From Nemertoderma westbladi (Eukaryota > Animalia > Xenacoelomorpha), in the NCBI GenBank assembly GCA_032718475.1, contig JAUCBJ010007040.1, positions 61,638 to 125,637 on the forward strand: DNA of 64,000 nucleotides, written 5' to 3'. The position numbers and the translations under genes are program-made. This document shows, piece after piece, positions 964 through 53,638 of this stretch (positions are counted from its first letter, which is position 1; every line of letters begins with the position of its first letter). The notes below the pieces were generated by a model, which worked only from the letters and a program-made list of their open reading frames with translations, did no database searches and was not told where the DNA came from.

Positions 964-1470
964 AATATCTACTATCTACACTAATAAGTACTTATTTTAT
1001 TATTTTACTTGTTTATTATTTTTATTTTGTGTGCGGGAAGGGCGTCTCGCCCTCATTCCCACCCCCTCAGTCCAACAAATTGGATGACTAAACTCTAAGG
1101 CGACCCTTCCAATAGGCAACACTTTCCTACCACCCTCCTGTAGGTCTTCCTATCTTTGGCCCCTATCTTTCCTCCGATCTTCACTTCTACGGATCTAATT
1201 CTTCCATCTTTGTCCCCCCTCAGTCCAACTTATTGGACGACTCAACAACCTAAGGGCGATTCTTCTAGCAGGCAACTCTCCCACTGCACCCCTGTAGGTC
1301 CTCTTAATCTTCGCCCCACTCTCCTTGTCAATTCCAACTCTCTTGGGATTGACCTTCCTTTCTCATCCACCCTTAAATCGGGTCTTTCTGTCATCTCTTT
1401 CTATCGTGGTCCCCTGGCAGAAAAATGCCACCCTCCATCTTGTTGTCACTTGGTGGTAGAATGCCGCACT

Positions 1471-3733: not shown

Positions 3734-6700
3734 CGCTTATACTTCCAGCGCGCTTGATGGTTGGGATACAGCCTCCCTTGCTGTTGGGTGCGGTTCTCCT
3801 GCCGGGCCCGTCGACTTTCCTTGCGTTGGATATATCATCGGGGGTAATGGTCCCCTCCATATCTCCGTGTCTCATGACTTATTTGGGTCTGAGGGGTTTG
3901 GGGTTTTTATTCTTGCCTGCATGTATTGCTGATACTGCAATGGGGGAATGTCACACTGCCCCCCCCCCCCCCCCCCCACCGGTGTTATGTTTGGTACTGG
4001 GGTTGATGTTATCATGTTAGGGCCCATGCACCTATTGGCAATACCCCCCCCCCCCCCCCCCCCTCCCCTGGGTATATATTATATCCCTGCATGTTATAGT
4101 CATACTGATGTGCAGGTACCAGTATAGGCCTATCCACTTCTTGCCTACCAACCGGTATGTACACCGCGATTTCCGGGTTTAATCCCGTTGTCCACGCTAC
4201 CCTATCGCCTACACTATCTCTCCCAGCATGGCCTATAGTATGTGCAGTATGGCCTACAGTTTTTCCTGTAGTCTGCATGTGTCCTTCTGGACCAAAGTTT
4301 AATCTTCTCGTGTACTCCAAGAAGTCCTCCCCGCGACTACCATAGTCTCGATCGGCAGCTGCGTTACGACGGGAAGTTTCTCTCTGGTCCCCTCTTCTGT
4401 CCTCATCCTCGTACCAGTACAGTCTGTACCCCTCTCCCGGTGTGTGGTATATCTCTCCAGGTTGTGTTTCTCCGGGGCGATGGCAATCTCCTGAAGTACG
4501 ACCCCACTGGCTTTCTGTCTCCATCTCGACTACTGATGGTTCACTGTCCGTCCTATCCCTCCGGTTGCTCATAGCAACGCTTCCTCTCTTCTCCTCGCCT
4601 CATCCTATTCCAGTGCAGTGTTCCTCCTCATGAGATCTCGCTTCGACCTCGCGTATAAACTCTACTGTGCTTCTTCCGTCTTCGTACTGGGCTCGACGTT
4701 TTCTCGCTCGCCCTCTCACGGCGCCAACGTCTCTCCCTCTGCCCGGTTTGACGGCCCTGGGGAAATTCGCAGTCCCCCTACTATTCTTTGTCGTCGGGTG
4801 CCACAGCTCACTTAACTCGCTGCGCGCATTGTCCACTGACGCTCGTGGGACATTCTCTGGCCCCCCTCTCGACCGCCGTCGGATGCTGTGGTTCACTCAA
4901 CTCACTGCGCACATTACCCGTCGACGCTTGTGGGACATTCTCTGCCCCCTCTCGTCACTAATCGCTTGTGGTAGGGTAGCCGTAGCCCCCCTCCGTCCGT
5001 CACCTCCTACTTCGCCCCTACACTCCCCTCTAGTCGACGCGTTATCTCTACCCTCACTGGGTTTATTCACTCCGGCTCCTCCTGGCGCAACTGCGTGGCC
5101 CTGCATGCTCTCATTGGCTGGCTCACTTGTTCCCCCTACGTTTGTATTAATTGCACTGTTAATAGTTTCGCCCTGGTTTACTATGTCGTTATTAATAATA
5201 TTACTTTGAATAATTTCTTTGGGGTTATTTATTATATTATTATTATTTAAATTATTGTTTAAAATATTTAAATTATTTTGTTCGATATTATTTATATTAT
5301 TATTTAAATTATTTTGCACACCAACATTAGGATTATTACTACTGGGTAAAATATTATTTCCTGCAAGAAAAGTTTGATTAGGGTTATCTATTACGGTACT
5401 ATTAATATTAACTTCACCGGATGTATTATTATTACCCCCCCCCCCCCCCCCCCCACCCATACGGTCACACCAGTCTTGGGTCTGTCATCCAGTACCTGTA
5501 AGTGGGGTATTAACAAAGGTTTCCATCACCTCTGGTTCCTCGTAAATACTACCCGAACCAGCCTCACTCTCCGATAAACCCATTTTTGCCAGTTCTAACC
5601 AGCGCTTTTGCTTCGCTTGGTAATGCATTAACCCTCTCAACCGGGTATGCATATCATCCCGCAAGCGTTTGCCCACGCTCTCTCTTTCTCTATCCTCCCT
5701 CATACTCTGGTTGGCCAATTCTGCCTCACTCGCCTCCCGCTCTCTACGCTCATTCATTTCTCTCTCAATCCTCTCAGCTTTCCTCGCTTCCCGCTCTTTG
5801 CGCTCGTTCTCTTCTCTCTCAATCCTCTAAGTTTTCCTCGCTCCCTGCTCTTTGCGCTCGCTCTCTTCTCTCGTCTCTCGCTCTTTGCGCTCATTTATCT
5901 CTTTCTCTCCTCCCACTCCCTATGGTTTCTCGCCACCCTCTCGGCCCTATCTTTACACTCGCTCGCTAATTCTCTCTCTCTCTCTAGCAACGCAGTTCCC
6001 TTTTCCAACTGCATTTCCACTTCCTTTTGACCCAGTGCAACAATGTCTAATTGACACACCAAATCTATCTCTAACACCCGTCTTGCAATCGCGGAGGATG
6101 TAGCAGACTTATCAGTCGCGACGGACTCCCGTCGCCTCTCTGTCCTGGTAATTTTCCCCCGTTTGCTGGGGTTCCTACTAACCGACGACACCGAATCTTC
6201 AGGGTTAACCTCGGATTCGCTGTCGTGCGGGTCGGCCCATCCCACTATTTTAATCCCCATCGCATCCACTAAGTAAGGCCCTATGTACACTACACCTGCC
6301 TCCATCACCTCGGATCGCCACAATTCAAATAGTTCTGTGGCGACCCCCCTCGCCCTCTCATTCGCCAGTTCCCCCTGTCCAAAATGGACTAAATAACGGA
6401 AATGTTTATTGGACTCACCTAGCCTCTGATATAGTTTAGGCTGGTCTACCTTTCTCCCTTCCTTAGCGTCTTTTAGTATCTTCTTGGTGGCGTTGTATGC
6501 CCGTCACAGGCGATCACTCGTCCCGACATCCTCCTCGTTGACTCTACCTTCCCTCCTCGTCCGGCGTCATACCGTCAGCCCCACCGTCGCCGTTCCAGTA
6601 GGCCGTTCGCCACCCTCAGATAAACTTATATATTAAAATAAAAAAATACCTAAGTTTTGAAATGAATAAAAACAGTGTAGAAAAGTCTAACAAAGCATTT

Positions 6701-7301: not shown

Positions 7302-10300
7302 GTAAGCAAATATCATATTATATTACCATTATAATACAACGTCGACGTTATCGTAATAACTTAAGCCTTGGCTTTCACGGTTTTGCAATTTTAATTTTCG
7401 AATTTATAATTTAATAAATTCCTCTTTTATGTGCTTCAGATATTGATGAATGTTCTACCAATTCTGATAATTGCCACATTAATGGAAGCTGCATGAACAG
7501 TGATGGTAGTTTCTCCTGTGCATGTAATTTGGGCTACACTGGCAATGGTGTTTCCTGCAGTGGTCAGCACATATCATCTTATATTAGCAATACAATATAA
7601 AGTTGACATTATCTTGTTAACTTAAGACTATTATCCATGGCATATGACTTTGTTTGATGTTTCTGCAATTAGGATTTGTGAATTTATAATTTAATAAATT
7701 CCTCCATTCTGTGCTTCAGATATTGATGAATGTTCTACCAATTCTGATAATTGCCACATTAATGGAAGCTGCATGAACAGTGATGGTAGTTTCTCCTGTG
7801 CATGTAATTTGGGCTACACTGGCAATGGTGTTTCCTGCAATGGTAAGCAAATATCAATAATTATTCACCAGTTATTTTGTTGTTTTTCCGGTTGTTTTTA
7901 CCCGAGGAGTAGGAACTAGCCGAGGCAAAGCCGAGGTTACTCCGATAACATCATTTTTATAAACTTTTAAAAGTTGATTATTATAATATTAAGCAATGGA
8001 AAAATTATTTCGAACAAAATTTTCTGATATAAAACTGCAACATTGTGTGCCCACTACTATAACTTTTCTAAAAGGGCATAGTTTTGGGGAGAGGATATAA
8101 AAAAGGGGCATGGCACTTTTGGCGGAAAAATAAAGACAAATAATATTATTTATTTGTACCGATTTAATAAGAGTGGTTTGGAAAAATGCAATATGAAATT
8201 CAAAAAGAAAACTTAGAAATTTCATAATTATTAGTAAACTTTTCCTGACCAACTGCCTTCATTTGACCTATTTTCAGAGAGCCATGCTTTTCAAAAGGAC
8301 AGCCCATCTAGGAGTACAGTTTACCATCCCGTATCACATCCGCAAAAAGCAATAAAAACGAAATTCTCCAAAACTACGAATTTTACCCAATCTCAAAAGT
8401 TATAATCCGAGCCCAAATCCTGTCTTATTTCAACTTATTTAATTCGTCCATTTTAAACATTGTCCATTATTCAAATTATAATATTTCAACATGACAAACC
8501 TTTTAAAATGTAGTAGTGACACTCACCATCAATTGAATCTTATCATATTTATTATAACAGTAAATTGACCAGATTATTTGCATAGTTACTATTTGAATCA
8601 ATCGGTTACTAAATTACTAAATTACTGGCTCTTTCAAGATTGCCTTTACCAGCACTTTTCGTTTCCGCTAATCTAGTTTTTAGGATGTCTCTACTAAGAC
8701 GAAACTCAGGGAGTTCTAGCGCATTTCCTAACCCTAGATCTTTCAATATGGGAAGGACTCCCTAAAAACAACGACCTTGCGCAACTTTTTCACCGGTTTT
8801 TTTCTTATACTTACGGATAAATCCGTTGAAATGTTTTGCTAATTCCCCTCTTTTCGATTCCTCGCTCACTTCTTCGATTGTTTCACTGACATTGTTTATG
8901 TCGAGATATTTTTGAAATGCTGCGACAGAACACAGAAACAGTGGTGGAATCAGTGGTATGGACGTTTCTGTTCGTTAATCTGTACTCGTCATCGGTTTTG
9001 TCGTTTTGCAATAATCGAAGAGATGACTCATCCCTGAATCGTTAAGCTGGTGGTATAGTTTCATCATTTCCCAATGTGGAATCCATTGAAATAAATTGAT
9101 CATTGGCATTGAAGAGATTTTCTAAACACACCAGATCAACTAAATCTAAGTCATCCATGCCTAATCGGTTATACTGGTTTGCAATACAATAGATCACAGC
9201 AAAAATGTTTAGGTAAACAGAATGTGAAACCAACGCACTGTTCTGCCATTACTCGCACCTACAATAGGCCTACTGTAGTTGACCTACCAATTTTTTGCTC
9301 TAAATCATAATTGCCAAACCTCAAAATAAGTGCAGAAGTGTACCTACTGTGGTACGTTACCGGTAAGATGCGTACCGTTATGTTGCACAAACCAAATTCG
9401 TCAAAGAGAAAGTGAAATCAAAATGCAGAAGCTACCTGTAGGTACCAGACTGCCGATATGTTGCTCTAAGCTAAAATGGTCAAACAGAAAGTAAACACCA
9501 TAAATAAAAAGCAGAAGGTACCGTAGGGCCTACAGTTTGCAGTTTGCAACCAGTGTAGGTTATCAATTATTACACTTCGGCCTACACCCCTTGGAAAAGT
9601 AACTATTTAAAATCCTCGGCCTTTGGCCTCGGATTTTAAACACTTAATTTTCCGCGGGCTTCGGCCTCAGCAACAGCAGTTGGTTTGCGGAAAAATAAAA
9701 TTACAAAATACCGGACAAAAATAACAACCCTATAGACCAACATTAGTTCAGTGTTATTTTTTCCAGGATTTGTTTTGTAACAACATATTATATTACCAAT
9801 ACAATATAAAGTTGACATTATCTTGTTAACTTAAATAAGACTACTGTATTATCCAATCCATGGCATAGGTTTTGATGTTTTTGCAATTATGATTTGTGTA
9901 TTTATATAATTTAATAAATTCCTCTATTATGTGCTTCAGATATTGATGAATGTTCTACCAATTCTGATAATTGCCACATTAATGCAAGCTGCTCGAACAG
10001 TGATGGTAGTTTCTCCTGTGCATGTAATTTGGGCTACACTGGCAATGGTGTTTCCTGCAGTGGTAAGCACATATCATCTTATATTAGCAATACAATATAA
10101 AGTTGACATTATCTTGTTAACTTAAGACTATTATCCATGGCATATGACTTTGATGTTTTTGCAATTAGGATTTGTGAATTTAGAATTTAATAAATTCCCA
10201 TTTTTTTGATCTTCAGATATTGATGAATGTTCTACCAATACTGATAATTGCCACATTAATGCAAGCTGCTCGAACAATGATGGTAGTTTTACATGTGTAT

Positions 10301-13300
10301 GTAATTCAGGCTATTCTGGAACTGGTGTTTCCTGCAATGGTAAGCAAATATCAGATAATATTACCAATACAAACAATACAAAACAAACTTCGATACCATC
10401 AACTTAAAATCCTATTATCCTGTCATATTGCTTTTAATTAAATTTTTTTGGAGTATTAATTTGCAAATTCATAATTTAGTAAATTCCTATATTTTGTACT
10501 TCAGACATTGATGAATGTTCTACCAATAGCGATAATTGCCATATTGATGCTAGCTGCACAAACAATGATGGTAATTTTACATGTGCATGCAATTCAGGCT
10601 ATTCTGGAACTGGTGTTTCCTGCAATGGTAAGGAAATAACATAGATAAGATACCGTACATTGTTGGTAGAACCTAACATTTCCTTGACCTCTATATTTTA
10701 CTGTTTACCTACCGGTACCGTGTTACTGTACCCATTTTCCTTATGCTCTATTTGTTATTATTATGGTAGTTATATATGATAGCCCACTCCAAAGTGAATA
10801 AATCTTCTACCGCCCTGGTAGCTCAGTGGTCTTAGGACACACACTCGGCTGATGATAACCGGAAGTTTGAAACCTAGGTACCGAGTTCGAGCCCCAATAG
10901 GGGCGGTTGATATTTTTCACTATGGAGAGCATTATCATAATGTACTATAACATTTATTTAATTCGCCGTCACCCTCCCCACAACAATTCATTTATAATTA
11001 ATTCACACGCATGGCCGGCATACGGGGTTACAGTGGTTTCTACAACACTGGATAATAGTTATTCTTTGAGGCATGGTTGCCATTTCTGGCAGAGCACGGG
11101 AATAACGTTGTACTTTCCTATGAGTGACTGTAAAAGGCCTATATATGATAGCCCACTCCAAAGTGAATAAATCTTCTACCGCCCTGGTAGCTCAGTGGTC
11201 TTAGGACACACACTCGGCTGATGATAACCGGAAGTTTGAAACCTAGGTACCGAGTTCGAGCCCCAATAGGGGCGGTTGATATTTTTCACTATGGAGAGCA
11301 TTATCATAATGTACTATAACATTTATTTAATTCGCCGTCACCCTCCCCACAACAATTCATTTATAATTAATTCACACGCATGGCCGGCATACGGGGTTAC
11401 AGTGGTTTCTACAACACTGTATAATAGTTATTCTTTGAGGCATGGTTGCCATTTCTGGCAGAGCACGGGAATAACGTTGTACTTTCCTATGAGTGACTGT
11501 AAAAGGCCTATATATGATAGCCCACTCCAAAGTGAATAAATCTTCTACCGCCCTGGTAGCTCAGTGGTCTTAGGACACACACTCGGCTGATGATAACCGG
11601 AAGTTTGAAACCTAGGTACCGAGTTCGAGCCCCAATAGGGGCGGTTGATATTTTTCACTATGGAGAGCATTATCATAATGTACTATAACATTTATTTAAT
11701 TCGCCGTCACCCTCCCCACAACAATTCATTTATAATTAATTCACACGCATGGCCGGCATACGGGGTTACAGTGGTTTCTACAACACTGTATAATAGTTAT
11801 TCTTTGAGGCATGGTTGCCATTTCTGGCAGAGCACGGGAATAACGTTGTACTTTCCTATGAGTGACTGTAAAAGGCCTATATATGATAGCCCACTCCAAA
11901 GTGAATAAATCTTCTACCGCCCTGGTAGCTCAGTGGTCTTAGGACACACACTCGGCTGATGATAACCGGAAGTTTGAAACCTAGGTACCGAGTTCGAGCC
12001 CCAATAGGGGCGGTTGATATTTTTCACTATGGAGAGCATTATCATAATGTACTATAACATTTATTTAATTCGCCGTCACCCTCCCCACAACAATTCATTT
12101 ATAATTAATTCACACGCATGGCCGGCATACGGGGTTACAGTGGTTTCTACAACACTGTATAATAGTTATTCTTTGAGGCATGGTTGCCATTTCTGGCAGA
12201 GCACGGGAATAACGTTGTACTTTCCTATGAGTGACTGTAAAAGGCCTATATATGATAGCCCACTCCAAAGTGAATAAATCTTCTACCGCCCTGGTAGCTC
12301 AGTGGTCTTAGGACACACACTCGGCTGATGATAACCGGAAGTTTGAAACCTAGGTACCGAGTTCGAGCCCCAATAGGGGCGGTTGATATTTTTCACTATG
12401 GAGAGCATTATCATAATGTACTATAACATTTATTTAATTCGCCGTCACCCTCCCCACAACAATTCATTTATAATTAATTCACACGCATGGCCGGCATACG
12501 GGGTTACAGTGGTTTCTACAACACTGTATAATAGTTATTCTTTGAGGCATGGTTGCCATTTCTGGCAGAGCACGGGAATAACGTTGTACTTTCCTATGAG
12601 TGACTGTAAAAGGCCTATATATGATAGCCCACTCCAAAGTGAATAAATCTTCTACCGCCCTGGTAGCTCAGTGGTCTTAGGACACACACTCGGCTGATGA
12701 TAACCGGAAGTTTGAAACCTAGGTACCGAGTTCGAGCCCCAATAGGGGCGGTTGATATTTTTCACTATGGAGAGCATTATCATAATGTACTATAACATTT
12801 ATTTAATTCGCCGTCACCCTCCCCACAACAATTCATTTATAATTAATTCACACGCATGGCCGGCATACGGGGTTACAGTGGTTTCTACAACACTGTATAA
12901 TAGTTATTCTTTGAGGCATGGTTGCCATTTCTGGCAGAGCACGGGAATAACGTTGTACTTTCCTATGAGTGACTGTAAAAGGCCTATATATGATAGCCCA
13001 CTCCAAAGTGAATAAATCTTCTACCGCCCTGGTAGCTCAGTGGTCTTAGGACACACACTCGGCTGATGATAACCGGAAGTTTGAAACCTAGGTACCGAGT
13101 TCGAGCCCCAATAGGGGCGGTTGATATTTTTCACTATGGAGAGCATTATCATAATGTACTATAACATTTATTTAATTCGCCGTCACCCTCCCCACAACAA
13201 TTCATTTATAATTAATTCACACGCATGGCCGGCATACGGGGTTACAGTGGTTTCTACAACACTGTATAATAGTTATTCTTTGAGGCATGGTTGCCATTTC

Positions 13301-16300
13301 TGGCAGAGCACGGGAATAACGTTGTACTTTCCTATGAGTGACTGTAAAAGGCCTATATATGATAGCCCACTCCAAAGTGAATAAATCTTCTACCGCCCTG
13401 GTAGCTCAGTGGTCTTAGGACACACACTCGGCTGATGATAACCGGAAGTTTGAAACCTAGGTACCGAGTTCGAGCCCCAATAGGGGCGGTTGATATTTTT
13501 CACTATGGAGAGCATTATCATAATGTACTATAACATTTATTTAATTCGCCGTCACCCTCCCCACAACAATTCATTTATAATTAATTCACACGCATGGCCG
13601 GCATACGGGGTTACAGTGGTTTCTACAACACTGTATAATAGTTATTCTTTGAGGCATGGTTGCCATTTCTGGCAGAGCACGGGAATAACGTTGTACTTTC
13701 CTATGAGTGACTGTAAAAGGCCTATATATGATAGCCCACTCCAAAGTGAATAAATCTTCTACCGCCCTGGTAGCTCAGTGGTCTTAGGACACACACTCGG
13801 CTGATGATAACCGGAAGTTTGAAACCTAGGTACCGAGTTCGAGCCCCAATAGGGGCGGTTGATATTTTTCACTATGGAGAGCATTATCATAATGTACTAT
13901 AACATTTATTTAATTCGCCGTCACCCTCCCCACAACAATTCATTTATAATTAATTCACACGCATGGCCGGCATACGGGGTTACAGTGGTTTCTACAACAC
14001 TGTATAATAGTTATTCTTTGAGGCATGGTTGCCATTTCTGGCAGAGCACGGGAATAACGTTGTACTTTCCTATGAGTGACTGTAAAAGGCCTATATATGA
14101 TAGCCCACTCCAAAGTGAATAAATCTTCTACCGCCCTGGTAGCTCAGTGGTCTTAGGACACACACTCGGCTGATGATAACCGGAAGTTTGAAACCTAGGT
14201 ACCGAGTTCGAGCCCCAATAGGGGCGGTTGATATTTTTCACTATGGAGAGCATTATCATAATGTACTATAACATTTATTTAATTCGCCGTCACCCTCCCC
14301 ACAACAATTCATTTATAATTAATTCACACGCATGGCCGGCATACGGGGTTACAGTGGTTTCTACAACACTGTATAATAGTTATTCTTTGAGGCATGGTTG
14401 CCATTTCTGGCAGAGCACGGGAATAACGTTGTACTTTCCTATGAGTGACTGTAAAAGGCCTATATATGATAGCCCACTCCAAAGTGAATAAATCTTCTAC
14501 CGCCCTGGTAGCTCAGTGGTCTTAGGACACACACTCGGCTGATGATAACCGGAAGTTTGAAACCTAGGTACCGAGTTCGAGCCCCAATAGGGGCGGTTGA
14601 TATTTTTCACTATGGAGAGCATTATCATAATGTACTATAACATTTATTTAATTCGCCGTCACCCTCCCCACAACAATTCATTTATAATTAATTCACACGC
14701 ATGGCCGGCATACGGGGTTACAGTGGTTTCTACAACACTGTATAATAGTTATTCTTTGAGGCATGGTTGCCATTTCTGGCAGAGCACGGGAATAACGTTG
14801 TACTTTCCTATGAGTGACTGTAAAAGGCCTATATATGATAGCCCACTCCAAAGTGAATAAATCTTCTACCGCCCTGGTAGCTCAGTGGTCTTAGGACACA
14901 CACTCGGCTGATGATAACCGGAAGTTTGAAACCTAGGTACCGAGTTCGAGCCCCAATAGGGGCGGTTGATATTTTTCACTATGGAGAGCATTATCATAAT
15001 GTACTATAACATTTATTTAATTCGCCGTCACCCTCCCCACAACAATTCATTTATAATTAATTCACACGCATGGCCGGCATACGGGGTTACAGTGGTTTCT
15101 ACAACACTGTATAATAGTTATTCTTTGAGGCATGGTTGCCATTTCTGGCAGAGCACGGGAATAACGTTGTACTTTCCTATGAGTGACTGTAAAAGGCCTA
15201 TATATGATAGCCCACTCCAAAGTGAATAAATCTTCTACCGCCCTGGTAGCTCAGTGGTCTTAGGACACACACTCGGCTGATGATAACCGGAAGTTTGAAA
15301 CCTAGGTACCGAGTTCGAGCCCCAATAGGGGCGGTTGATATTTTTCACTATGGAGAGCATTATCATAATGTACTATAACATTTATTTAATTCGCCGTCAC
15401 CCTCCCCACAACAATTCATTTATAATTAATTCACACGCATGGCCGGCATACGGGGTTACAGTGGTTTCTACAACACTGTATAATAGTTATTCTTTGAGGC
15501 ATGGTTGCCATTTCTGGCAGAGCACGGGAATAACGTTGTACTTTCCTATGAGTGACTGTAAAAGGCCTATATATGATAGCCCACTCCAAAGTGAATAAAT
15601 CTTCTACCGCCCTGGTAGCTCAGTGGTCTTAGGACACACACTCGGCTGATGATAACCGGAAGTTTGAAACCTAGGTACCGAGTTCGAGCCCCAATAGGGG
15701 CGGTTGATATTTTTCACTATGGAGAGCATTATCATAATGTACTATAACATTTATTTAATTCGCCGTCACCCTCCCCACAACAATTCATTTATAATTAATT
15801 CACACGCATGGCCGGCATACGGGGTTACAGTGGTTTCTACAACACTGTATAATAGTTATTCTTTGAGGCATGGTTGCCATTTCTGGCAGAGCACGGGAAT
15901 AACGTTGTACTTTCCTATGAGTGACTGTAAAAGGCCTATATATGATAGCCCACTCCAAAGTGAATAAATCTTCTACCGCCCTGGTAGCTCAGTGGTCTTA
16001 GGACACACACTCGGCTGATGATAACCGGAAGTTTGAAACCTAGGTACCGAGTTCGAGCCCCAATAGGGGCGGTTGATATTTTTCACTATGGAGAGCATTA
16101 TCATAATGTACTATAACATTTATTTAATTCGCCGTCACCCTCCCCACAACAATTCATTTATAATTAATTCACACGCATGGCCGGCATACGGGGTTACAGT
16201 GGTTTCTACAACACTGTATAATAGTTATTCTTTGAGGCATGGTTGCCATTTCTGGCAGAGCACGGGAATAACGTTGTACTTTCCTATGAGTGACTGTAAA

Positions 16301-19300
16301 AGGCCTATATATGATAGCCCACTCCAAAGTGAATAAATCTTCTACCGCCCTGGTAGCTCAGTGGTCTTAGGACACACACTCGGCTGATGATAACCGGAAG
16401 TTTGAAACCTAGGTACCGAGTTCGAGCCCCAATAGGGGCGGTTGATATTTTTCACTATGGAGAGCATTATCATAATGTACTATAACATTTATTTAATTCG
16501 CCGTCACCCTCCCCACAACAATTCATTTATAATTAATTCACACGCATGGCCGGCATACGGGGTTACAGTGGTTTCTACAACACTGTATAATAGTTATTCT
16601 TTGAGGCATGGTTGCCATTTCTGGCAGAGCACGGGAATAACGTTGTACTTTCCTATGAGTGACTGTAAAAGGCCTATATATGATAGCCCACTCCAAAGTG
16701 AATAAATCTTCTACCGCCCTGGTAGCTCAGTGGTCTTAGGACACACACTCGGCTGATGATAACCGGAAGTTTGAAACCTAGGTACCGAGTTCGAGCCCCA
16801 ATAGGGGCGGTTGATATTTTTCACTATGGAGAGCATTATCATAATGTACTATAACATTTATTTAATTCGCCGTCACCCTCCCCACAACAATTCATTTATA
16901 ATTAATTCACACGCATGGCCGGCATACGGGGTTACAGTGGTTTCTACAACACTGTATAATAGTTATTCTTTGAGGCATGGTTGCCATTTCTGGCAGAGCA
17001 CGGGAATAACGTTGTACTTTCCTATGAGTGACTGTAAAAGGCCTATATATGATAGCCCACTCCAAAGTGAATAAATCTTCTACCGCCCTGGTAGCTCAGT
17101 GGTCTTAGGACACACACTCGGCTGATGATAACCGGAAGTTTGAAACCTAGGTACCGAGTTCGAGCCCCAATAGGGGCGGTTGATATTTTTCACTATGGAG
17201 AGCATTATCATAATGTACTATAACATTTATTTAATTCGCCGTCACCCTCCCCACAACAATTCATTTATAATTAATTCACACGCATGGCCGGCATACGGGG
17301 TTACAGTGGTTTCTACAACACTGTATAATAGTTATTCTTTGAGGCATGGTTGCCATTTCTGGCAGAGCACGGGAATAACGTTGTACTTTCCTATGAGTGA
17401 CTGTAAAAGGCCTATATATGATAGCCCACTCCAAAGTGAATAAATCTTCTACCGCCCTGGTAGCTCAGTGGTCTTAGGACACACACTCGGCTGATGATAA
17501 CCGGAAGTTTGAAACCTAGGTACCGAGTTCGAGCCCCAATAGGGGCGGTTGATATTTTTCACTATGGAGAGCATTATCATAATGTACTATAACATTTATT
17601 TAATTCTGATAATTGCCACATTAATGCAAGCTGCATGAACAGTGATGGTAGTTTCTCCTGTGCATGTAATTTGGGCTACACTGGCAATGGTGTTTCCTGC
17701 AGTGGTAAGCACATATCATCTTATATTAGCAATACAATATAAAGTTGACATTATCTTGTTAACTTAAGACTATTTATTATCCATGGCATATGACTTTGAT
17801 GTTTCTGCAATTAGGATTTGTGAATTTAGAATTTAATAAATTCCCATTTTTTTTGATCTTCAGATATTGATGAATGTTCTACCAATACTGATAATTGCCA
17901 CATTCATGCAAGCTGCTCGAACAATGATGGTAGTTTTACATGTGTATGTAATTCAGGCTATTCTGGGACTGGTGTTTCCTGCAATGGTAAGCAAATACCA
18001 GATAATATTACCAATACAAACAATACAAAACAAACTTCGACACCATCACCTTAAAATCCTATTATCCTGTCATATTGCTTTTAATTTAATTTTTTTGGAG
18101 TATTAATTTGCAAATTCATAATTTAGTAAATTACTAATTTTTGTACTTCAGACATTGATGAATGTTCTACCAATAGCGATAATTGCCATATTGATGCTAG
18201 CTGCACAAACAATGATGGTAATTTTACATGTGCATGCAATTCAGGCTATTCTGGAACTGGTGTTTCCTGCAATGGTAAGGAAATAACATAGATACTGTAC
18301 ATTGTTGGTAGGACCTAACATTTCCTTGACCTCTATATTTTACTGTTTACCTACCGGTACCGTGTTACTGTACCCATTTTCCTTATGCTCTATTTGATAT
18401 TATTATGGTAGGTGCTTAAATGCACAACGAGCAACAATGACCAACAACGAGCAACAATGACCAACAACGAGCAACAATGAGCAACAATGAGCAACAACAA
18501 GCAACAACGAGCACCAATGAGCAACAACGAGCAACAATGAGCAACAACTAGCACCAATGAGCGACAACGAGCAACAACGAGCACCAATGAGCAACAACGA
18601 GCACCAATGAGCGACAACGAGCACCAATGAGCGACAACGAGCAACAACGATCACCAATGAACAACAATGAGCAACAATGAGCAACAACGAGCAACAGTGA
18701 GCAACAACGAGCAACAACGAGCACCAATGAGCAATAAACGAGCAACAATAGGCAAAAATAATAAACTCGTTGTTGCTCATTGTCGCTCAATGTTGCTCGT
18801 TGTTGCTCATTGGTGCTCGTTTTTGCTCGCTGTTGCTCGTTGTTGCTCATTGTTGCTCGTTGTTGTACTTTATTATAGCTCGTTGTTGCTCGTTGTTGCT
18901 CATTGGTGCTCGTTTTTACACATTGTTGCTCGTTGTTGTACATTATTATAACTCGTTGTTGCTCGTTGTTGCTCATTGTTGCTCGTTGTTGCTCATTGGT
19001 GCTCGTTGTTGCGCGTTGTTGCTCATTGTTGCTTGTTGTTGCTCGTTGTTGCTCGTTGTTGCTCATTGTTGCTCGTTGTTACTCATTGTTGCTCATTGTT
19101 GCTCGTTGTTGCTCATTATTGCTCGTTGTTGCTCATTGTTGCTCGTTGTTATTCGTTGTTGTTCATTGTTGTTCGTTGTTGCTCATTGTTGTTCGTTGTT
19201 GTACTTTATTATTGCTCAATGTTACTCATTGTTGCTCGTTGTTACTCATTGTTGCTCGTTGTTGGTCATTGTTGCTCGTTGTGCATTTTAGCACCTACTA

Positions 19301-22300
19301 TTTACCTTGTCAGCTTGTTACATTGTCAAATTTAAAGGATTGGCCATAGGCCTACCTATTCCCTATCACATGCTTATCCCCTTTATCTGGTGTGGTGGCA
19401 ACGTTGTGGATACGACCTCACAAAAGATTTCAACTGAAATTCACTAGAACCCCAACCCTACAAGCCTATACCAGTATATACTTACGGGGTCGGCAGTATT
19501 TACTAACCATCATTATTTAGGTATGCCAGGGAGTTAACGAAACTGCCTCGGATAAACCTTGTTAAGAACTGCCATAAAATAAATATATTGAAATTGTCTG
19601 GGTCTATTAACATTCCTGCAGATATCGCAAGTCCAAAATGCCCTTGAGTGTCTTACTCCAACCTGCCAAATTTAAAAATTTCGCACCAAAAATTGGAGTC
19701 ATGTCAAACAACCTCTCAATGATCTGTCATCCAACTATCGCCACACAAGAAGATGACCAAAGTGATGGTATTATCACTTATACAGGGTCAGTTGTGATGA
19801 TAAAGCTTTGTTCAGTACTTTTCCTACAGGTAGTATTCAGCATGAGCATAGTGATGACATACAAGATGAAGATGATACCCCAATCTTCATCACTCTCTCT
19901 ACTTGGCTACCCCTAAAAGGCGAGTGTGCATATCTTTGCCTTATCAAACCCACATAATACAGGGCACTCAACCTCCAGATGTGAGACAGGAATCCGAGAC
20001 ATGAAATTATATATTGTGTTGGCTACTTTATCACATGATGGACTTGTACAGGTTCGCCATTCCTAACCCCTTACTGCAACAAAGGAGCTCATTGTTGTCC
20101 CACATTCTGTTATAGGTGGACTTCTCAATGCTTATACACTTTAGGTTAAATCACCCTTCCACCTCCCAGCTTCGACATTATCACATACTATTTTTCAGCA
20201 CTGGACTTAGAACAGTCACTTGTTCAAATAGCACCTCATTGTCACCATTGTAATTCCTTAAATAAAGTGCCATGTTTTGCTGTTGACCAAACTACTGCCA
20301 TTATAGTAATTATTACTGCCAGTAGTAGGAACCTCGTTTGCAGCTGATATTCTTTGACAATCAAACAGTATATTTTAGTAGTATGAAAAGGATTTACTGC
20401 TTATACTACTACATGTATCATACCTGATGAGAAAGGGGCGACATTACGTTATCGACAATAAGATTATGTTCAGGTTTAACACCACTTCAAGGCTCACACT
20501 GCAACGTACGAGTTGACCCTGGTACTGGATTCAACTCACTGAAAGATGATCATGGTCTCTGTTATCATATTCAATTCAATTCAATTCAATATATATTTTC
20601 CAAATGCTTAACAAATGATACAATAAATTGCACAATAATTACTGTACAATATATATTGTAAATACGTAATTATAAAGTAAATTATAAAGTAAATGGGGGA
20701 TTTAGCACAGGACAGGACACCAGCGAATAGCTGTAATAGCTAGTAGCGTGCTGGTGCCCTGGGGGGGGGGGGGGGGGGGGGGGGTACGTTACGTTTGCTA
20801 CTAGTGTTACATGATATAATTTTAATATACATAGATATGAGTATTGAAATTTATATTTATTACTTCGTGCAGCACCAATCGTAATACGTGGACGGACGCT
20901 ACACTGCCGCCAAGGAAAAACAAGATTTGTATAATAAAACTAAATTTAAATTTAAATACTGGATGATTTAATTTTTCGTAGTTGATAATAATGGAGGAGA
21001 ATATTGCAAGGTAATTCCAAATATCTATATAGTTTCAAGTAGATATCTCTTAAGATTTTTAGCAAATGTTGATTTGGTTTTCTTTTGTTTAATTATACGT
21101 GGGATAGAATTCCACACGGACGGGCCCCGAAAACTGATGGTTTGCTGACTAGATACTAAACGAACTAAAGGGATCTGATAATTATCAGCAGCTACTGACC
21201 GGGTGTTATATTGGTGAACAGAAGAAGTTAAAGTAAAAAGATTTGATATTAAGGGTGGAACATCTATTAGTTTATTGTGCAATTCGTACATGAATATACC
21301 TACCTGTTGTTTATAGAGTTGATCTAATGGGAGTATGCCTAACTGTTTATAAATAGGTAAAGAAGATGACCGGTAGTGACTACGTGTAATACAGCGAAGG
21401 ATCTTGTTTACTTTAATTCTGATCGGTTTTAGAACAGAAGAGAATGTACCGCCCCAAACTATAATGCCGTAAAGTAGATAAGGATGCACAAGTGAATAGT
21501 AAAGCTGGCGTAAAATATTAAGAGGAAAAATATACCGAAGTTTATAAAATATCCCAGCCGTTTTGGAAATTTTTTGAATTATGTGCTGAATATGAGTTTT
21601 AAAATTTAACTGTTTATCAACCCAGATGCCCAAGATTTTGCTGGATTGTGTATACTTAATTTTAATATTATTAATTTCAACTCTAGATAGATTATAGGTA
21701 CTGTGAATATTTGAAAAAAATGTTGCTTCAGTTTTAGTCAAATTAAGTGACAAAGCGTTATCCATCAGCCAATCTGAAATTTTAGTTAGTTCAGAGTTTA
21801 GTTCTGATATTAAAATATTGGGATTTTTATGTGAATAGAGTAAGGTTGTATCGTCAGCAAAAAGTGCAGGAAAAAGTTTGGAAGCCCGGGGGAGATCATT
21901 TATATATAATAAAAATAAAGTGGGAGATAGGACGCCCCCTTGCGGAACACCACAAAGAAGTGGCTCTAGAGAAGACAAAAAATTACCTAGCTTTACGAAT
22001 TGCTGCCTGGATGCAAGAAAATTTTCGAATAATTGGAGCGGTACACCTCTGACTCCGTATCTTTCGAGCTTATTTAATAGAATTTTATAATTTAAGGTAT
22101 CAAAAGCTTTTGATAGATCAATGTAAACAGCGCACGATGCGTCCTTTTCTTCGAGGGCCGTGTGAATCTGTTCTAAAACCGATAGAATTGCATGTGAGGT
22201 TGTTCTTTTAGGCCTAAAACCGAACTGAGATTGAGAGATAATTTTAAATTTTGATAAATAAGAAATAAGTTGTGTATTGATAATAGTTTCGAAAATTTTA

Positions 22301-25300
22301 GTTAATACCGGTAGTAGGGAAATAGGTCTAAAGTTCGTAGGATTACTCGCGTTACCACCCTTATGTAATGGAATAACTTTAGCAATCTTTAGCGAATCAG
22401 GATAAAAACCAGAAGAAAAAGATAAGTTGATTAGACTACTTAAGTGTATTGATAGCGGTTTAGCTGCGAGGATTAGGAGCTTAGTAGGAAAAGGATCATT
22501 AGAGGCGGATTTAGGATCTAGGTGTAATAGGCGGTATTCTACTTCAACTGGAGTGGTTTCGGTAAGACCAAAACTATTGTTATTAGAATGTGAAATATGA
22601 CGTAGATAAGAACGGTTAGATTTAGGTATTTTATCTGCTAATTTCGGTCCTATTGTAGAGAAGTGATTATTTAAGGTATTAGCGATTTCGGATGGATCAG
22701 TAATTGTCCTAATAGAATCGCCTGAGCCGGTAATTAATTTTTTTGGGATCAAGGAATTTTTAGATCTATTAAGTGCACTGTTAATTATTATCCAAGTTTT
22801 TTTAATGTTTCCAGAATTTTTTTCAAATTGTGCCGAATAGTATTCCTTTTCAGCCTTACGCAATAAATTAAGTAGTTTATTTCTAAAACGTTTAAAAGAT
22901 TCAAGATTTATGTCATTTGGATGTTTAATATATGTACGATATAAATTATTTTTAATTATAGTCAATTTAATTAATTTGGGAGTAAGCCACGGTTTTCTTG
23001 GAAGTTCGCGAGATGGGATTGTTTTTTTAGGAACATGCGAGTTTGTGATTTTCGAAAAATCAATCTTATACTCGATGTTGGGTGTAAGAAGAACACAAAC
23101 AAGAAGACCATGCACTGCTAAGAGAGCAGTGCAGGAACTATGTTATGAGATTTTCAAGGAAGATCCCTGTGGAAATATAATCTCACCAACAATGTTGATG
23201 TTGGTTAGGCCTACCTCTCGTCTCAATTCCAAACTGATATCCTCTGTCCTTTCTGCATGTGAGATGCTTTACCAACATGATCAGTAATCAATGTTCGTAA
23301 CCCTATCCTTTCGGCCACCCAACTCTCCGTTAGCATGAATGCTGCTCCACTATCGACCAACATCAGTGTCGTGACCGATAGCCCGTCCTCTCCTATTATT
23401 CTCACTGGTACTACAGCGAGTAGTACTGTCCTCTTCCTCCTTGCTCCCATCGTGCTCGTTGCCATGGTTTGGCCTCCAGTCTCATTTGTCTCGTCGTGTT
23501 TCATCGGTGGTTTCTGGCATTCATCCAGTGTCCTCCTACCGCGCATCGGTGACATAGTCCATTCTTATCAGCATAGGCTATCCGATCTTGTTTGAGTAAC
23601 GCCTGCCAATGCTTACAGTCCATGGTCTTATGGGTTCCATCAATATGCAATTGACATTTGTATCCTGGATTGTAGCGTTCCTTGTATAGCCCTTCACATA
23701 TCACGCGTAGATTCATATCTAGCAGTTTAGTGTTGCATTCTGTGCTCAAAAAACACTGAACAACGAAATGTAAGCCGACTACTGATTCGAAATGACTCAG
23801 ATAGATTGCTTACTAATATCCTACAGCGTTTGAATAAACCACCCGTTCCAAGGCAAAACTAATATTTCTGAAATGTTCTAAATGTTGCTGCTAATTAAGG
23901 CAAAAAGGTGATACCCACATTTAAATATCACATGACTGAGTCAAGCTAAATTTGCTATATTGTAATCTAGATTTAGCGTAGTACTTTCAATATAATCTAG
24001 GACTAATTTTGTAATAAATATAAATTGAAATCTGACAGCCGAGTTCCGTTAATTATCGGCTATAAGCCGCTTTTACGCAGGTCCCATTTCCAAATAATAT
24101 CATTTTGGCTTCTCCAAAACTGTAATACTTCCAATGAACCAACCGAAAGGGAGAGTCTGTCTATTATGGATGATCAAATAGCTAACCAGCCCAGCGTGTG
24201 ATAGTGAATGATCCCCAAAATCGAAAGTCGGCCTAGTGATAGAAATATATATAATCAGAATTGTTAGTCCCCCAAATAATCCCAATGAAATGTAGAATCG
24301 AAGCACCTATTTTTACTGTCGATTCCCCTCCCAAAACTAGGAATGGTTGGAAATGGGCTGGGCTGTTCAATAATCTAATGCGGTAATACGACCTTTAATC
24401 CAAAATGTACTAATTAAATCAAAAAAATCCTAGGTGTTAGCGAATTCAATTCCGCTAACCACCCCATAAAGTTGGGAAAGCGGTGCCTTTAAGCAATATT
24501 GGGGAGTACGAGGTTGATTACCAACCAACCTCGTATCACCCCCAATGAACGGGGACGACAAACCCCAAAGGGCCGTACACAATGGGGGTCAGAGGTTACA
24601 CCTCCGGGAGAGGGAAAGTAACAGTAGCAAAGGGGGAAACACTCCCAGAGAGATGGGAGGCGAGAATTAGGTTACTAGCCAATGGGGGGCAAGCATCCGC
24701 TGAGTGATAGGGCCAATGTAGGGTGATTAGATATATATTACCGGTCGGTGCCCATAACATTCAGTAATTTGCTCAGTCACATTATTGTTTGCAGAACGGT
24801 GACACTTTAAGACCGTCACCGTCGTCACCAATACACATTATCATTAACGGTATACTGTGATGTCATTACTCTGTCTATCTTATATACATATATCTTATCA
24901 ATAATACTGGAAGAACGACAAACTCTTTTCTTTCATTCGCACGGCGTGGATGCGTATATAAACCAAACAGGTTGGGATCCTCTGATCCCGTCACAGTCTT
25001 AAAGTCTAAGAACTGCCAAATTGTGACTGCCAGCCACCAGAGAAGAACAGAGTAAAGATGAGTCAAGAGGGAAAAGGACACCGCCATGGACCCCGGATGA
25101 CAACCTAACGATCCGCGCGGCCGCGGCGAGACGGTATCGACCCACAAGGCCGGATTCGTCGACTACAGACGATCCGGCAATCCAAGCGGAGGGGGGCTGT
25201 CTACAACGAGGACGAGAGGACGAGTCGACACGCGGCGGCGGTCGAGTTACCGATGTCGCCGGCCAGCCACAGGCCGAGGGCGACAGACGGCCCACCGGAA

Positions 25301-28300
25301 CGGCGATGGTGGGGCCGCCAGTACGACGCCTAACACAGAGAGAAAGAGGGGACGTCGGCGACGAGGACGTCGGAGTCAGCGACCGGCTCCGACGAGTCTA
25401 CAACGCGACGAGGAGGCAACTGAAGGAAGCCAAAGAAGGAGCTTTTATATTTCATCGACATATCAGCCTGCTGTGACGCGTACTTACTAGACCCGGTCGG
25501 GATCCCTCGATCCCGTCACACTTATCATATTTAGTATAACAGTAAATTGACCAGATTATTTGCATAGTTACTATTTGAATCAATCGGATACTAAATTACG
25601 AGACCCCCCCCCCCCCCCCCAGCTCTCTCCCTGTGTTTAGCATTTTACTGGCCTTGCTATTTTAACTGTCCAACTATTCAATTATTCTTTCCCTCTCTGA
25701 CACTAAACCATTGATTACATATAAAAATTAATTTGGGTGATAAAATATTTATATTTGCAAAATTATCAAGGCCACATAACGCCGATTTACACTTACACGC
25801 TAATTTAAAATTAACTTTCTAATAAGTTTACTCATTATACTTTATTTTTTTTACGTAGTTTACTTTAACACTTTTTGAAATTAGTTTCCTTTTATAATTA
25901 ACTCGTTTTTATATTTAAAACTAGAAAGCCAGCAAGCTGGCTGGAAGGAGCCCGGAGGAAGAATCCTATTTACAAGACTATTACAAATAAACCTTGTCGG
26001 TCAGCAGTAAGTAAACTAAACAATTGTCTAAACTATAAGGCGTGGGGCTAGCTGACTTTGTGTCTCGTCCCACATAATAAAAATAGGAAACTTTGCTATG
26101 ACAACACACCCGGTTCTTTTAAATTTGAGTTTTATGCCTGCACCACTATTTGTAAAAAATGTTAAAACTTATCTTACAGTATGCCAATGTAGTAATGGTA
26201 TTAAAATATAATTAAATTAATTTACACTATGCATATATCACATATTACACAATTTACACTAATGCTTCAGCTAAAAAATGATGCTAATCCTATGTAATAA
26301 AAACAATAAGAATATTATTTTTAAGAACTTTCTACATATATCCTATACAAAATAACCAGCCCAATGATTCGTGGAATAATAATATAATCCTACTGCATTT
26401 GTATATTTTATTTTGTTTATTGACAACTCAACTATTTTCTGTCTATCCCTGAGAGCTGATAAAGGATGTGTAGACTCAGCCAGCAGCCAGCAGCAGGAGG
26501 GGTGTAGTCAAGAAATTCTGCCTTGATGGAATTATATCTCATGCAGCCCTGCACTCAACCATTACTACACAGCTAGCTGCTGCAGCAGCTCAGGGAGGAG
26601 TTGTTACTTTACTATTGCTTTTTATTTCGCGACAAAATAATTTCAAAAAAACGAAATATATCGAATACCACACATACAATCTATCTGATATTTTGCAACG
26701 CGATTATGAACCACCAAAGCAATTTACTTTCAAAATTTCAACAAAATCGCCAGGCAGGAAGTGCCTGAACCTTGATAATTATCAGTCAGTCAGTCAGTGT
26801 TATATATCCTGAGATTTTTACAGTAAGTATCCCTTAGATTTTTGAACCACCATAGCAATTTACTTTTAAAATTCAACAAAATCGCCAGGCAGGAAGTGCA
26901 TGAACCTTGATAATTATCAGTCAGTCAGTCAGTCAGTCAGTGTTATATATCCTGAGATTTTTACAGTAAGTATCCCGCAGATTTTTACAGTAAAATTTTT
27001 ACATTAAAATTTACATTGGAATTTCTGTACAATCTAAGTAGGTTAGGTTAGGTTAGTTAGCTAGGTTAGTCTCTTTTAATGATCATTCTCAACTCACTCT
27101 CAGCTCACTCTCCACACTATTGCTGATGAAAGTCGATGAAACTGATCCTGATTCCAATCTGTCAATGGTCTAAGATCACTAGATGACGATGGTCCCGCCA
27201 TGTATAGGCTCAACTGACGACTCATTTCAAATTTCTTTGAAGTAGACGGTAGAAGATAGGAAGTCGTTGTGGATAGATTCATGTGCCCTAGGTGTCTGTG
27301 AACTGTGTGTGCTGTGTCTGTTAACCTCTGTGCTAGGTTAACTGGTTGGCCACCATCTACCAATGCTTGGGGTGCCGTTTTACGACAGGAAATAGGGGTA
27401 AGCTTCTTTCCTCCTTGTATCCCAGCTTTCGTTATTAGAATCGTAAACATTTTAGCGAATTGATGCTTTCCTACTGGTTGCTCACAGAACCATTTCTCAC
27501 TTGGCTTGGTGTTATGCTTTGGACATATGAAGTATGGCTGCAAACCATCTACCTTTCCATCGGGGAAACGTTTCATTATGTAGAAGTCATGAAGTGTAAC
27601 TGCACACAGACTTCGATCCGCTTTGTACTCATACTACTACTAGGATCGGCATGCTGCATTGCAGCTGCATTTTTAAGAATGCTGTGCCGGCTTGTCAACA
27701 AAATTGCACCGCCACAACTCCCTATCACCCATGACATTTGCTAGATCATCCGCATCTTTAAGGCCAGTGTCCTTTAAGATGCGTCTCAAGAAAGTCATGG
27801 GCTGTCCACCATGCTTATTCGCTCCATGAGGCTGCCAAAGTACAAGATTATGCACTGGCTGGTCCTCACGGCGAAAGCAATGTCCTGCAAAGCGGAGGCG
27901 ATTTTGTTCTAGTGTCAAGCTTGGGGGAACCAATGAGACACCTCCAATGTTATATAGTGTCTGGTTGGAGATGTGTGCATTGTACTTGACACAATGAACC
28001 CGGCGTAGCATTCTTGTGAATGTGCCATCCAGAGATTTGGTGTCCTCAGCAGTTAGAGCCCAGCATGGACTCCCGTAGAGGAGTACTGGAACTACTGCTG
28101 CTCTAAATAATCGGACCTTGGACCTTTTTTTGTACTCATAAGCACTTGGTGAAAATTCCCTGGGGGCCGAATCGTCGTGTCACATCTTTGTACTACATTC
28201 CTTTAGTTTTAGGTAGTATATAAGCCATCTTCAGGGTTATAGTGCTTTGTTATGTCGCCCACAAGTATTTTTCTCATCTCCTCGTCTGGACGAGCTCCAA

Positions 28301-53506: not shown

Positions 53507-53638
53507 GTAAGGAAATAACATAGATACTGTACATTGTTGGTAGGACCTAACATTTCCTTGACCTCTATATTTTACTGTTTACCTACCGGTACCGTGTTAC
53601 TGTACCCATTTTCCTTATGCTCTATTTGATATTATTAT

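What the first reader, a model, noticed from the sequence alone, without database searches (positions are those of the whole stretch)
10771..17606. Tandem array of 19 hammerhead ribozymes: a non-LTR retrozyme-like locus predicted to release 369-nt (circular) RNAs
Seen: every 369-bp unit contains ACTCGG-CTGATGA-tAACcggaaGTTt-GAAA-C-ctag-G-TA-CCGAGT. This gives a 6-bp helix I, the conserved hammerhead core, a short helix II and a 2-bp helix III capped by a palindromic loop (ACCTAGGT); predicted cuts fall after 10880+369n. The rest of the unit has further hairpins (ACAGTgGTT/AACACTGT, TGCCA-tttc-TGGCA). Established: metazoan non-LTR retrozymes (newt satellite 2, schistosome SM-alpha, cricket pDo500) are tandem repeats of a few hundred bp with type I hammerheads whose weak palindromic helix III permits dimeric cleavage, and several accumulate as circular RNAs. 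Inference: this is a young retrozyme family, possibly undescribed. Caveat: position 10.1/11.1 is U.U rather than the usual G-C pair.
Basis: partly seen in the sequence, partly recalled or inferred. Interest (0 to 1): 0.92.

Follow-up and report, generated by a model that had tools for sequence, protein, structure and literature searches.

The report
Retrozyme array, hammerhead inside tRNA promoter
Nineteen near-identical repeats of 369 bases each carry a hammerhead ribozyme motif built into the middle of a tRNA-like sequence; this is likely a jumping RNA element of an animal that is predicted to carry its own promoter and to cut itself in pairs into units that would circularise.

Summary
The array is real: 18.5 units of 369 bp, 19 type I hammerhead motifs, one mismatch among the full units. 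An A box, a B box and an acceptor-like stem lie in exact tRNA register, followed by the unit's only T5 run. The ribozyme replaces the anticodon arm and variable loop, helix I uses the T-stem strand, and the predicted cut falls between the boxes. Runs of the same organism hold a large, varied family in which one helix I pair varies on both sides (U-A to C-G, unphased) and inverted copies occur. Folding predicts no hammerhead in a one-core RNA but a double-hammerhead frame in two-core RNAs; helix II is never predicted. Best reading: a non-LTR retrozyme with an internal Pol III promoter, like schistosome Sm-alpha but nested rather than promoter-then-ribozyme, probably copied by Penelope-like enzymes. 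Cleavage, transcription and circles are not shown. The 810-bp flank repeat is not a clean target duplication. The scan's earlier notes describe tRNA promoter plus hammerhead repeats in other genomes. New variant of a known kind.

The parts
10771..17606 (+). Tandem array, 18.5 x 369 bp, 19 hammerhead cores, 42.8% GC
10812..10905 (+). tRNA-derived cassette of unit 1 (tRNA positions 1-73; repeats at +369n); acceptor-like stem 6 of 7 pairs in exact register, T stem 2 of 5
   Evidence: ARAGORN calls it only at relaxed score with a 13-nt intron, not by default
10819..10829 (+). A box-like element at tRNA positions 8-19
   Evidence: sequence; box consensus recalled
10843..10886 (+). Type I hammerhead motif: helix I 10843-48 with 10881-86, core CTGATGA 10849-55, weak helix II 10857-67, GAAA 10869-72, palindrome 10872-79, predicted cut after 10880 (just before tRNA position 49)
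10884..10894 (+). B box-like element (T54 = 10886), overlapping the 3' arm of helix I; family majority has G at 10884
10913..10917 (+). T5 run, the only run of 4 or more T on this strand of the unit, 8 nt after tRNA position 73; predicted Pol III terminator
10918..11180 (+). Non-coding body of the unit with two local hairpins, running into the next cassette
17413..17606 (+). Last, partial unit (194 nt) with full cassette, hammerhead and T5
17602..17606 (+). Right junction: 5-nt microhomology AATTC shared by unit and host exon
10770..10770 (+). Left junction: one extra T found in neither the empty paralogous sites nor the unit
9960..10769 (+). Left copy of the 810-bp flank repeat (three EGF_CA exons at 9940-10062, 10217-10339, 10505-10627), part of a host segment 1.4-1.9% diverged from the other paralogues along its whole length
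17602..18411 (+). Right copy of the flank repeat, starting inside an EGF exon (to 17704, acceptor lost); 15 substitutions from the left copy, 0-2 from three empty paralogues at about 29730, 43672 and 52839

Best explanation
This is a tandem array of hammerhead motifs nested in tRNA-like cassettes, likely a non-autonomous retroelement (retrozyme) that is predicted to be transcribed by Pol III from its own boxes, to self-cleave only as a two-core RNA, and to be copied back, probably from an RNA circle, by a Penelope-like enzyme. Shown: the array, the nested anatomy, the junctions and a large varied family in the same organism. Step 1 (inferred): Pol III starts at the cassette and mostly stops at the T5, giving a one-core RNA of about 105 nt that folds away from the hammerhead. 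Step 2 (inferred, folding only): one read-through of the T5, or Pol II reading the host EGF gene on the same strand, gives RNA with two cores, which pair through the palindrome and crosswise helices I into a double hammerhead and release a 369-nt monomer. Step 3 (from known retrozymes): a host tRNA ligase closes the monomer. Because the cut lies between the A and B boxes, a linear monomer carries the boxes in the wrong order; only a circle or a multimer restores them. Step 4 (inferred): reverse transcription primed at an AT-rich host site with 5 nt of microhomology ran round the circle about 18.5 times.
For: Family: 1017, 525 and 53 contigs laid on a 161-nt stretch in three DNA runs; one search lists only 4 sites varying at 6% or more in X1 and 5 in X4 (one search shows one more at 10919), and two of them are partners of one helix I pair: 11214 T>C at 57, 70, 73% and 11253 A>G at 91, 97, 95% of summed depth. 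A third, 11230 G>A (56, 47, 65%), lies in loop II and breaks the rival anticodon-like stem. The acceptor stem is broken without compensation at 11272 (about 73-82%), as expected if boxes and ribozyme matter and the cloverleaf does not. Folding: helix I probability 0.01 in the one-core RNA; palindrome pairing 0.74-0.98 in 30 of 30 two-core RNAs with starts 11160-11210 and ends 11626-11700 (56 end pairs tested in all); the double hammerhead is 5.8 kcal/mol better than two single ones. Penelope-type signs: 6 of 8 joints listed and 7 of 15 shown are opposite-strand, one seen in all three runs; inverted 5' copies are typical of PLEs (PMC8557442); the right junction holds ATT, the cut preference of a purified PLE (PMC11167929). 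Precedent: Sm-alpha (PMC6765202, PMC2770079) and metazoan retrozyme circles (PMC7229834).
Against: Helix II is never predicted (probability 0.03 or less) and lacks G10.1-C11.1; the fully constrained double hammerhead is 5.5 kcal/mol above the minimum; Rfam does not recognise the motif. The double frame fades when the RNA is extended to 11760 and beyond (palindrome 0.00-0.43 at end 11877), which is the case for long Pol II transcripts folded at equilibrium. The covariation is one pair, unphased, and may be one event; the 6% cut-off cannot show that the core is more conserved than its neighbours. Depth over the A box is about 7-fold (X1) to over 20-fold (X4, X2) below the hammerhead and B box, and loose ends at 11206 suggest copies with an altered A box. 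The predicted circle is not unusually stable (z -1.41). There is no clean target duplication and no Penelope RT or GIY-YIG in the 101 frames scanned. In Xenopus only 1 of 9 retrozyme dimers cleaved in vitro (bioRxiv 2026.07.22.740005), and the Anolis PLE hammerhead was dispensable for insertion in vitro (PMC11167929).
Confidence: 0.5

Rival explanations
1. An ordinary non-LTR retrozyme: the ribozyme works, but the tRNA boxes are a silent relic and multimeric precursors come only from Pol II read-through, here from the host EGF gene.
For: The hammerheads lie on the sense strand between EGF exons; reviews state that retrozymes seem to lack promoters and rely on read-through (PMC7761336); a T5 in every unit opposes Pol III multimers; the A-box part is thinner in the family.
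Against: Both boxes are intact in the array, the family majority has the more canonical G52, and no B-box core position varies at 6% or more in X1 or X4; the two-core fold is best predicted for RNAs ending near the second T5.
Confidence: 0.22
2. The hammerhead of this subfamily is inactive; one SINE-like or Penelope-type insertion was multiplied at the DNA level (unequal crossing over, slippage) into a minisatellite.
For: Weak helix II and no Rfam match; the region is already prone to tandem duplication and the two flanks come from different paralogues; 8 of 9 Xenopus dimers did not cleave and the authors favour local amplification (bioRxiv 2026.07.22.740005).
Against: All catalytic core bases are intact in 19 of 19 copies; helix I varies on both sides in the family; the array begins and ends at different unit positions with microhomology and an extra base, as expected from copying more than one turn, although one insertion of 1.5 units followed by expansion would look the same.
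Confidence: 0.18
3. The main product is the 105-nt Pol III RNA; two such molecules cleave each other through the palindrome, and the family spreads as short SINE-like monomers, arrays being rare by-products.
For: A terminator sits right behind the cassette; summed depth falls about 4-fold after unit position 170, and 46, 43 and 6 contigs diverge behind 11308 into AT-rich sequence; with four family-majority letters helix I reaches probability 0.55 in this RNA (unphased, in silico).
Against: The shared sequence runs past the T5 to at least unit position 170, which a terminated RNA would not carry; 11308 lies near the end of the stretch laid, so these loose ends are weak; the rest of the unit is also highly repeated.
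Confidence: 0.1

Closest known systems
Sm-alpha / Sj-alpha SINE-like hammerhead retroposons of Schistosoma (PMC6765202 passages; PMC2770079 passages; PMC8490949 passages; the original paper was not held)
   Same: tRNA-derived repeat of about 335 bp, apparently Pol III-transcribed, with a type I hammerhead; tandem copies; single cleaved copies lose their promoter.
   Different: The review describes a promoter followed by the hammerhead, with the promoter left at the 3' end of the cleaved unit. Here the hammerhead lies between the A and B boxes, helix I overlaps the B box, the cut splits the promoter, a T5 follows the cassette, and helix II lacks G-C closure. Sequence homology to Sm-alpha was not tested.
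Metazoan non-LTR retrozymes (coral, mussel 350-390 bp, axolotl; PMC7229834 passages and first third of Results; PMC7761336 passages)
   Same: Tandem repeats of 150-450 bp, GC below 50%, no coding frame, one type I hammerhead each, short palindromic helix III, dimeric folding.
   Different: Said to lack promoters; 'pol III' and 'SINE' occur 0 times in the main text of PMC7229834 (its supplement with sequences could not be read). Their circles are predicted to be highly self-paired, which is not clear here.
Penelope-like element pLTR hammerheads and non-autonomous derivatives (PMC4209133; PMC8557442; PMC11167929; bioRxiv 2026.07.22.740005)
   Same: Extra unpaired base after A9, palindromic loop 3, partial tandem and inverted copies, AT-rich target.
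   Different: Helix II is short and lacks G10.1-C11.1; no parent element was found; no tRNA cassette is described in the parts I read.

Membership tests
Type I hammerhead ribozyme | Core CUGANGA, GAAA, A15.1-U16.1, cleavage triplet NUH | tested here: met
   19 of 19 copies
Type I hammerhead ribozyme | Helix I closing core and cut, supported by covariation | tested here: met
   6 bp; one pair varies on both sides in three runs, unphased
Type I hammerhead ribozyme | Stable helix II closed by G10.1-C11.1 | tested here: not met
   U.U, or extra U plus A-U; 3 bp at best, probability 0.03 or less
Type I hammerhead ribozyme | Match to an Rfam hammerhead model | tested here: not met
Type I hammerhead ribozyme | Self-cleavage | not testable with these tools
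   needs an assay
Non-LTR retrozyme | Tandem 150-450 bp non-coding units, GC below 50%, a type I hammerhead in each | tested here: met
   369 bp, 42.8% GC; the one 89-aa frame scanned has no Pfam match
Non-LTR retrozyme | Weak palindromic helix III allowing a double hammerhead | tested here: met
   (prediction only)
Non-LTR retrozyme | Accumulating linear and circular unit-length RNA | not testable with these tools
   only contig runs were offered
Non-LTR retrozyme | Highly self-paired circle | tested here: inconclusive
   57% paired, z -1.41, 10 of 100 shuffles as good
Non-LTR retrozyme | Target site duplication, when present, longer than 4 bp | tested here: inconclusive
   810-bp flank repeat, but its copies are different paralogues
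Non-LTR retrozyme | No internal promoter (PMC7761336) | tested here: not met
   A box, B box and T5 present; their activity is untested
Sm-alpha-type SINE-like retroposon | tRNA-derived Pol III boxes plus hammerhead in a tandem-prone repeat | tested here: met
Sm-alpha-type SINE-like retroposon | Promoter followed by the hammerhead | tested here: not met
   hammerhead and cut lie between the boxes against the layout in PMC6765202
Sm-alpha-type SINE-like retroposon | Sequence homology to Sm-alpha | not tested
   no Sm-alpha sequence was available from a tool
Penelope-like element derivative | Homology to the pLTR of an autonomous PLE | not testable with these tools
   no genome held; none in the window
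Penelope-like element derivative | Inverted 5' copies and AT-rich (ATT) target | tested here: inconclusive
   opposite-strand joints in contigs laid at 80% likeness; one junction with ATT
Functional tRNA gene | Cloverleaf with 5-bp T stem, anticodon arm and maintained acceptor stem | tested here: not met
   no default ARAGORN call; T stem 2 of 5; A box to T54 is 67 nt against 45-48 in 105 of 112 tRNAs; acceptor broken in most family copies

The most novel reading that the evidence does not exclude
A self-sufficient circRNA cassette in which a tRNA gene became a ribozyme: the anticodon arm and variable loop were remodelled into, or replaced by, a hammerhead whose helix I doubles as the start of the B box. 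The captured terminator acts as a switch: terminated one-core RNAs stay uncut, one read-through gives exactly the two-core substrate, and because the cut splits the promoter only circle-derived, more-than-unit copies stay transcribable. In the boldest form the CUGA U-turn of the core descends from the anticodon loop itself (C3 falls at tRNA position 32 if two units of the length-variable AC repeat are left out), which would be a natural tRNA-to-hammerhead transition.
Probability: 0.25. Interest if true: 0.82.

Novelty: new variant of a known kind. Interest (0 to 1): 0.6.

Why it matters
How animal retrozymes are transcribed and which enzyme copies them are open questions; reviews say they seem to lack promoters. 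This element offers a compact test: its boxes, terminator and ribozyme can each be mutated in a 475-nt construct. If the model holds, it shows a retrozyme with its own Pol III promoter that is split by its own cut, explains why more-than-unit copies are needed, links SINEs, retrozymes and Penelope elements in one unit, and gives a natural Pol III cassette for making small RNA circles. The overlap of helix I with the B box is also a clear case of one sequence under two constraints.

Tried and rejected
Rfam: no match at gathering score; two chance matches at E 5.7-8.5. Own genome: none held. No RNA holder listed; this is no evidence on expression. Run X5 (RNA is a guess, another organism label) has one 184-nt exact piece at depth 4 outside the cassette core: not used. 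These collections hold few animal genomes, so this does not show the family is unique. The 810-bp flank repeat was considered as a giant target duplication and rejected as such: the left flank differs from the other paralogues at the same rate inside (1.85%) and outside (1.4-1.8%) the repeat. Contigs of about 1.9 kb that begin and end in the unit were considered as an autonomous parent; the X2 copy appears to carry core changes (C3, A6) and the middle could not be read, so this is unresolved. Summed contig depth (peak 338,421 in X1) was not taken as a copy number. tRNA isotype: Lys was commonest among pattern-selected tRNAs (52 of 112), but scores outside the pattern do not separate isotypes. 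The ESM Atlas on the nearby RT gave only eukaryotic RVT_1 clusters, so the phylum is undetermined. Literature: nine searches listed no paper whose title or abstract start describes a hammerhead nested between A and B boxes; subscription papers and Repbase/Dfam entries were not searchable. A search for U-U at 10.1/11.1 gave 0 papers.
Full report
Observation. The array lies at 10771-17606, with period 369 and 18.5 copies. Seventeen of the 18 full units are identical, unit 1 differs at one base, and the last unit is 194 nt. The hammerhead string occurs 19 times with the cut triplet GTA at 10878-10880+369n. My descriptor found such a motif with a 6-bp helix I in 0 of 20,000 shuffles of the unit. 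Rfam did not recognise it.

Each hammerhead is embedded in a tRNA-like cassette (10812-10905 in unit 1). Counting from 10812 as position 1, an A box starts at position 8; counting back from the other end, T54 of a B box is at 10886, and positions 1-7 pair with 72-66 in 6 of 7 places with no shift of register (box consensus recalled). An A box plus B box pair at this spacing arose in 2 of 20,000 shuffles and nowhere else in the window. A pattern made of the two boxes retrieved 112 distinct sequences from viral contigs; all were called tRNA, with 45-48 nt from A box to T54 in 105 of 112, against 67 here. ARAGORN ignores the cassette by default and calls it at 80% score with a 13-nt intron. The only run of four or more T on this strand is a T5 eight bases after position 73. 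So the anticodon arm and variable loop are occupied by the ribozyme, the 3' arm of helix I is tRNA positions 49-54, and the predicted cut falls just before position 49, between the two boxes. It is not a working tRNA: the T stem has 2 of 5 pairs.

The family. Four DNA contig runs of one organism label, from three studies, hold 66-83% of the unit's words; one may be the source of the window. On a 161-nt stretch 1017, 525 and 53 contigs were laid, ranging from over 99% to under 90% alike. Few sites vary at 6% or more: 4 in X1 and 5 in X4, plus 10919 seen. Two are the partners of one helix I pair: T>C at 11214 (57, 70, 73% of summed depth) and A>G at 11253 (91, 97, 95%). U-A, U.G and C-G all pair, and the G also gives the commoner B box. 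A third change, in loop II, breaks the rival anticodon-like stem but not the hammerhead. A fourth breaks the acceptor stem in most copies without compensation. These are unphased, depth-weighted contig figures, and one pair may be one event. Depth is much lower over the A box and falls after unit position 170, which may reflect truncation or diverged subfamilies. Opposite-strand joints are frequent (6 of 8 listed; 7 of 15 shown, 28 more hidden), as for inverted Penelope insertions (PMC8557442, passages), but they were laid at 80% likeness.

Folding. In the one-core RNA from position 1 to the T5, helix I has probability 0.01 and the hammerhead fold is 5 kcal/mol above the minimum, because the D-loop region pairs with the palindrome and cut site. 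In the two-core RNA from position 1 to the next T5, the palindromes pair at 0.87-0.94 and one crosswise helix I at about 0.75. Over 56 start and end pairs, palindrome pairing is 0.74-0.98 in all 30 with starts 11160-11210 and ends 11626-11700, lower with start 11100 (0.00-0.38), and 0.00-0.43 at end 11877. Helix II is never predicted, in any of three registers tried under constraint it adds little, and the conserved G10.1-C11.1 pair is absent; the U after A9 resembles the extra base of Penelope hammerheads (PMC4209133, parts 1-2 of 4). The circle is 57% paired and not clearly better than shuffles.

Context and junctions. The array lies on the sense strand of a gene with 123-nt calcium-binding EGF exons, in a region of near-identical segmental repeats with LINE-like RT, BEL-like gag and recombinase-like fragments; an animal host is inferred, the phylum is not known. 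The right end shares AATTC with an EGF exon, which it decapitates; the left end has one extra T. The 810 bp left of the array recur on its right, but the two copies differ by 15 substitutions, whereas the right copy differs from three empty paralogues by 0-2, and the left segment is equally diverged outside the repeat. So this is either an insertion that joined two paralogues or haplotypes, or a long duplication later converted on one side. In X1 and X4 the contigs over the left intron carry the paralogue-type letters, in line with a private or polymorphic insertion, though absence is not shown. No Penelope RT or GIY-YIG was found in 23 long and 78 of 98 shorter frames scanned (20 frames, mostly in repeated segments, were left out).

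Mechanism. Most likely (0.5): Pol III transcribes the cassette; most RNAs stop at the T5 and stay uncut; one read-through, or Pol II from the host gene, gives two cores, which fold as a double hammerhead and release a 369-nt monomer; a tRNA ligase closes it (shown in vitro for other retrozymes, PMC7229834, passages); a Penelope-like enzyme copies the circle more than once. Since the cut splits the promoter, only circles or multimers regenerate it. The anatomy is shown; transcription, cleavage, circularisation and the copying enzyme are inferred. Rivals: silent boxes with Pol II only (0.22); inactive ribozyme with DNA-level expansion (0.18), for which 8 of 9 non-cleaving Xenopus dimers are a warning (bioRxiv 2026.07.22.740005, parts 1-3 of 5), as is the dispensable, protein-assisted hammerhead of an Anolis PLE (PMC11167929, parts 1-2 of 4); short SINE-like monomers as the main form (0.1).

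Comparison. It works like a non-LTR retrozyme and meets the structural definition, but departs from the statement that retrozymes seem to lack promoters (PMC7761336, passages). A tRNA-derived, Pol III-type repeat with a hammerhead is known from schistosome Sm-alpha (PMC2770079, PMC6765202, PMC8490949; passages), described as a promoter followed by the ribozyme. I could not read the original Sm-alpha paper, a hammerhead review, PMC5785218 (recalled as the paper on dimeric minimal hammerheads) or the sequence supplement of PMC7229834; any of them could bear on whether the nested layout or the weak helix II has precedent. Nine literature searches listed nothing on a hammerhead between A and B boxes (listings and abstract starts only, apart from the papers named). 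No look-alike stretch is in the scan's earlier notes, but notes on other genomes report tRNA promoter plus hammerhead repeats; I did not test those.

Verdict. Observation confirmed; interpretation partly supported; new variant of a known kind; interest 0.6.

Noticed in passing
window 8622-20566, 28129-34815, 42997-49265, 51234-58304: Segmental repeats, 95-99.9% identical, each with three EGF_CA exons followed by a long imperfect palindrome of 10-bp units (for example 18424-18748 facing 18766-19282) bounded by short inverted ends; looks like a MITE- or foldback-like element. The array's left junction lies 11-12 nt before where this element starts in the empty paralogues.
   Followed up: partly
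window 21025-23142 (-) and 35307-36599 (-): Two LINE-type reverse transcriptase frames (RVT_1, E 7e-31 and 6e-24); neither gave a Penelope-type sign.
   Followed up: partly
window 1-6600, 37000-42300 and 58100-62700: Related, strongly strand-skewed elements (GC skew to -0.43 and +0.56) with gag-like DUF1759 and aspartyl protease matches but no RT match in the frames scanned; one copy is inverted and ends in G/A-rich minisatellites.
   Followed up: no
window 27100-27633 (-) and 50712-51284 (-): DUF3504 / tyrosine recombinase-like fragments, as in Crypton-type elements (label recalled).
   Followed up: no
L016, L034, L042, L044, L060, L070 (one metagenome sample; similar motifs in L082, L089, L107, L110): An unrelated family of minimal Penelope-type hammerhead motifs with palindromic loop 3, some in inverted pairs, without an A box; probably DNA of an animal host.
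   Followed up: no
L043 (-), near 3001-3043: A type I hammerhead-like motif with 6-bp helix I and G-C-closed helix II in a metagenome contig.
   Followed up: no
records 7 (X1), 10 (X2), 22 (X4): Contigs of about 1.9 kb with unit sequence at an end (both ends in X2) and about 1.75 kb of other sequence; a longer relative or an old insertion.
   Followed up: partly
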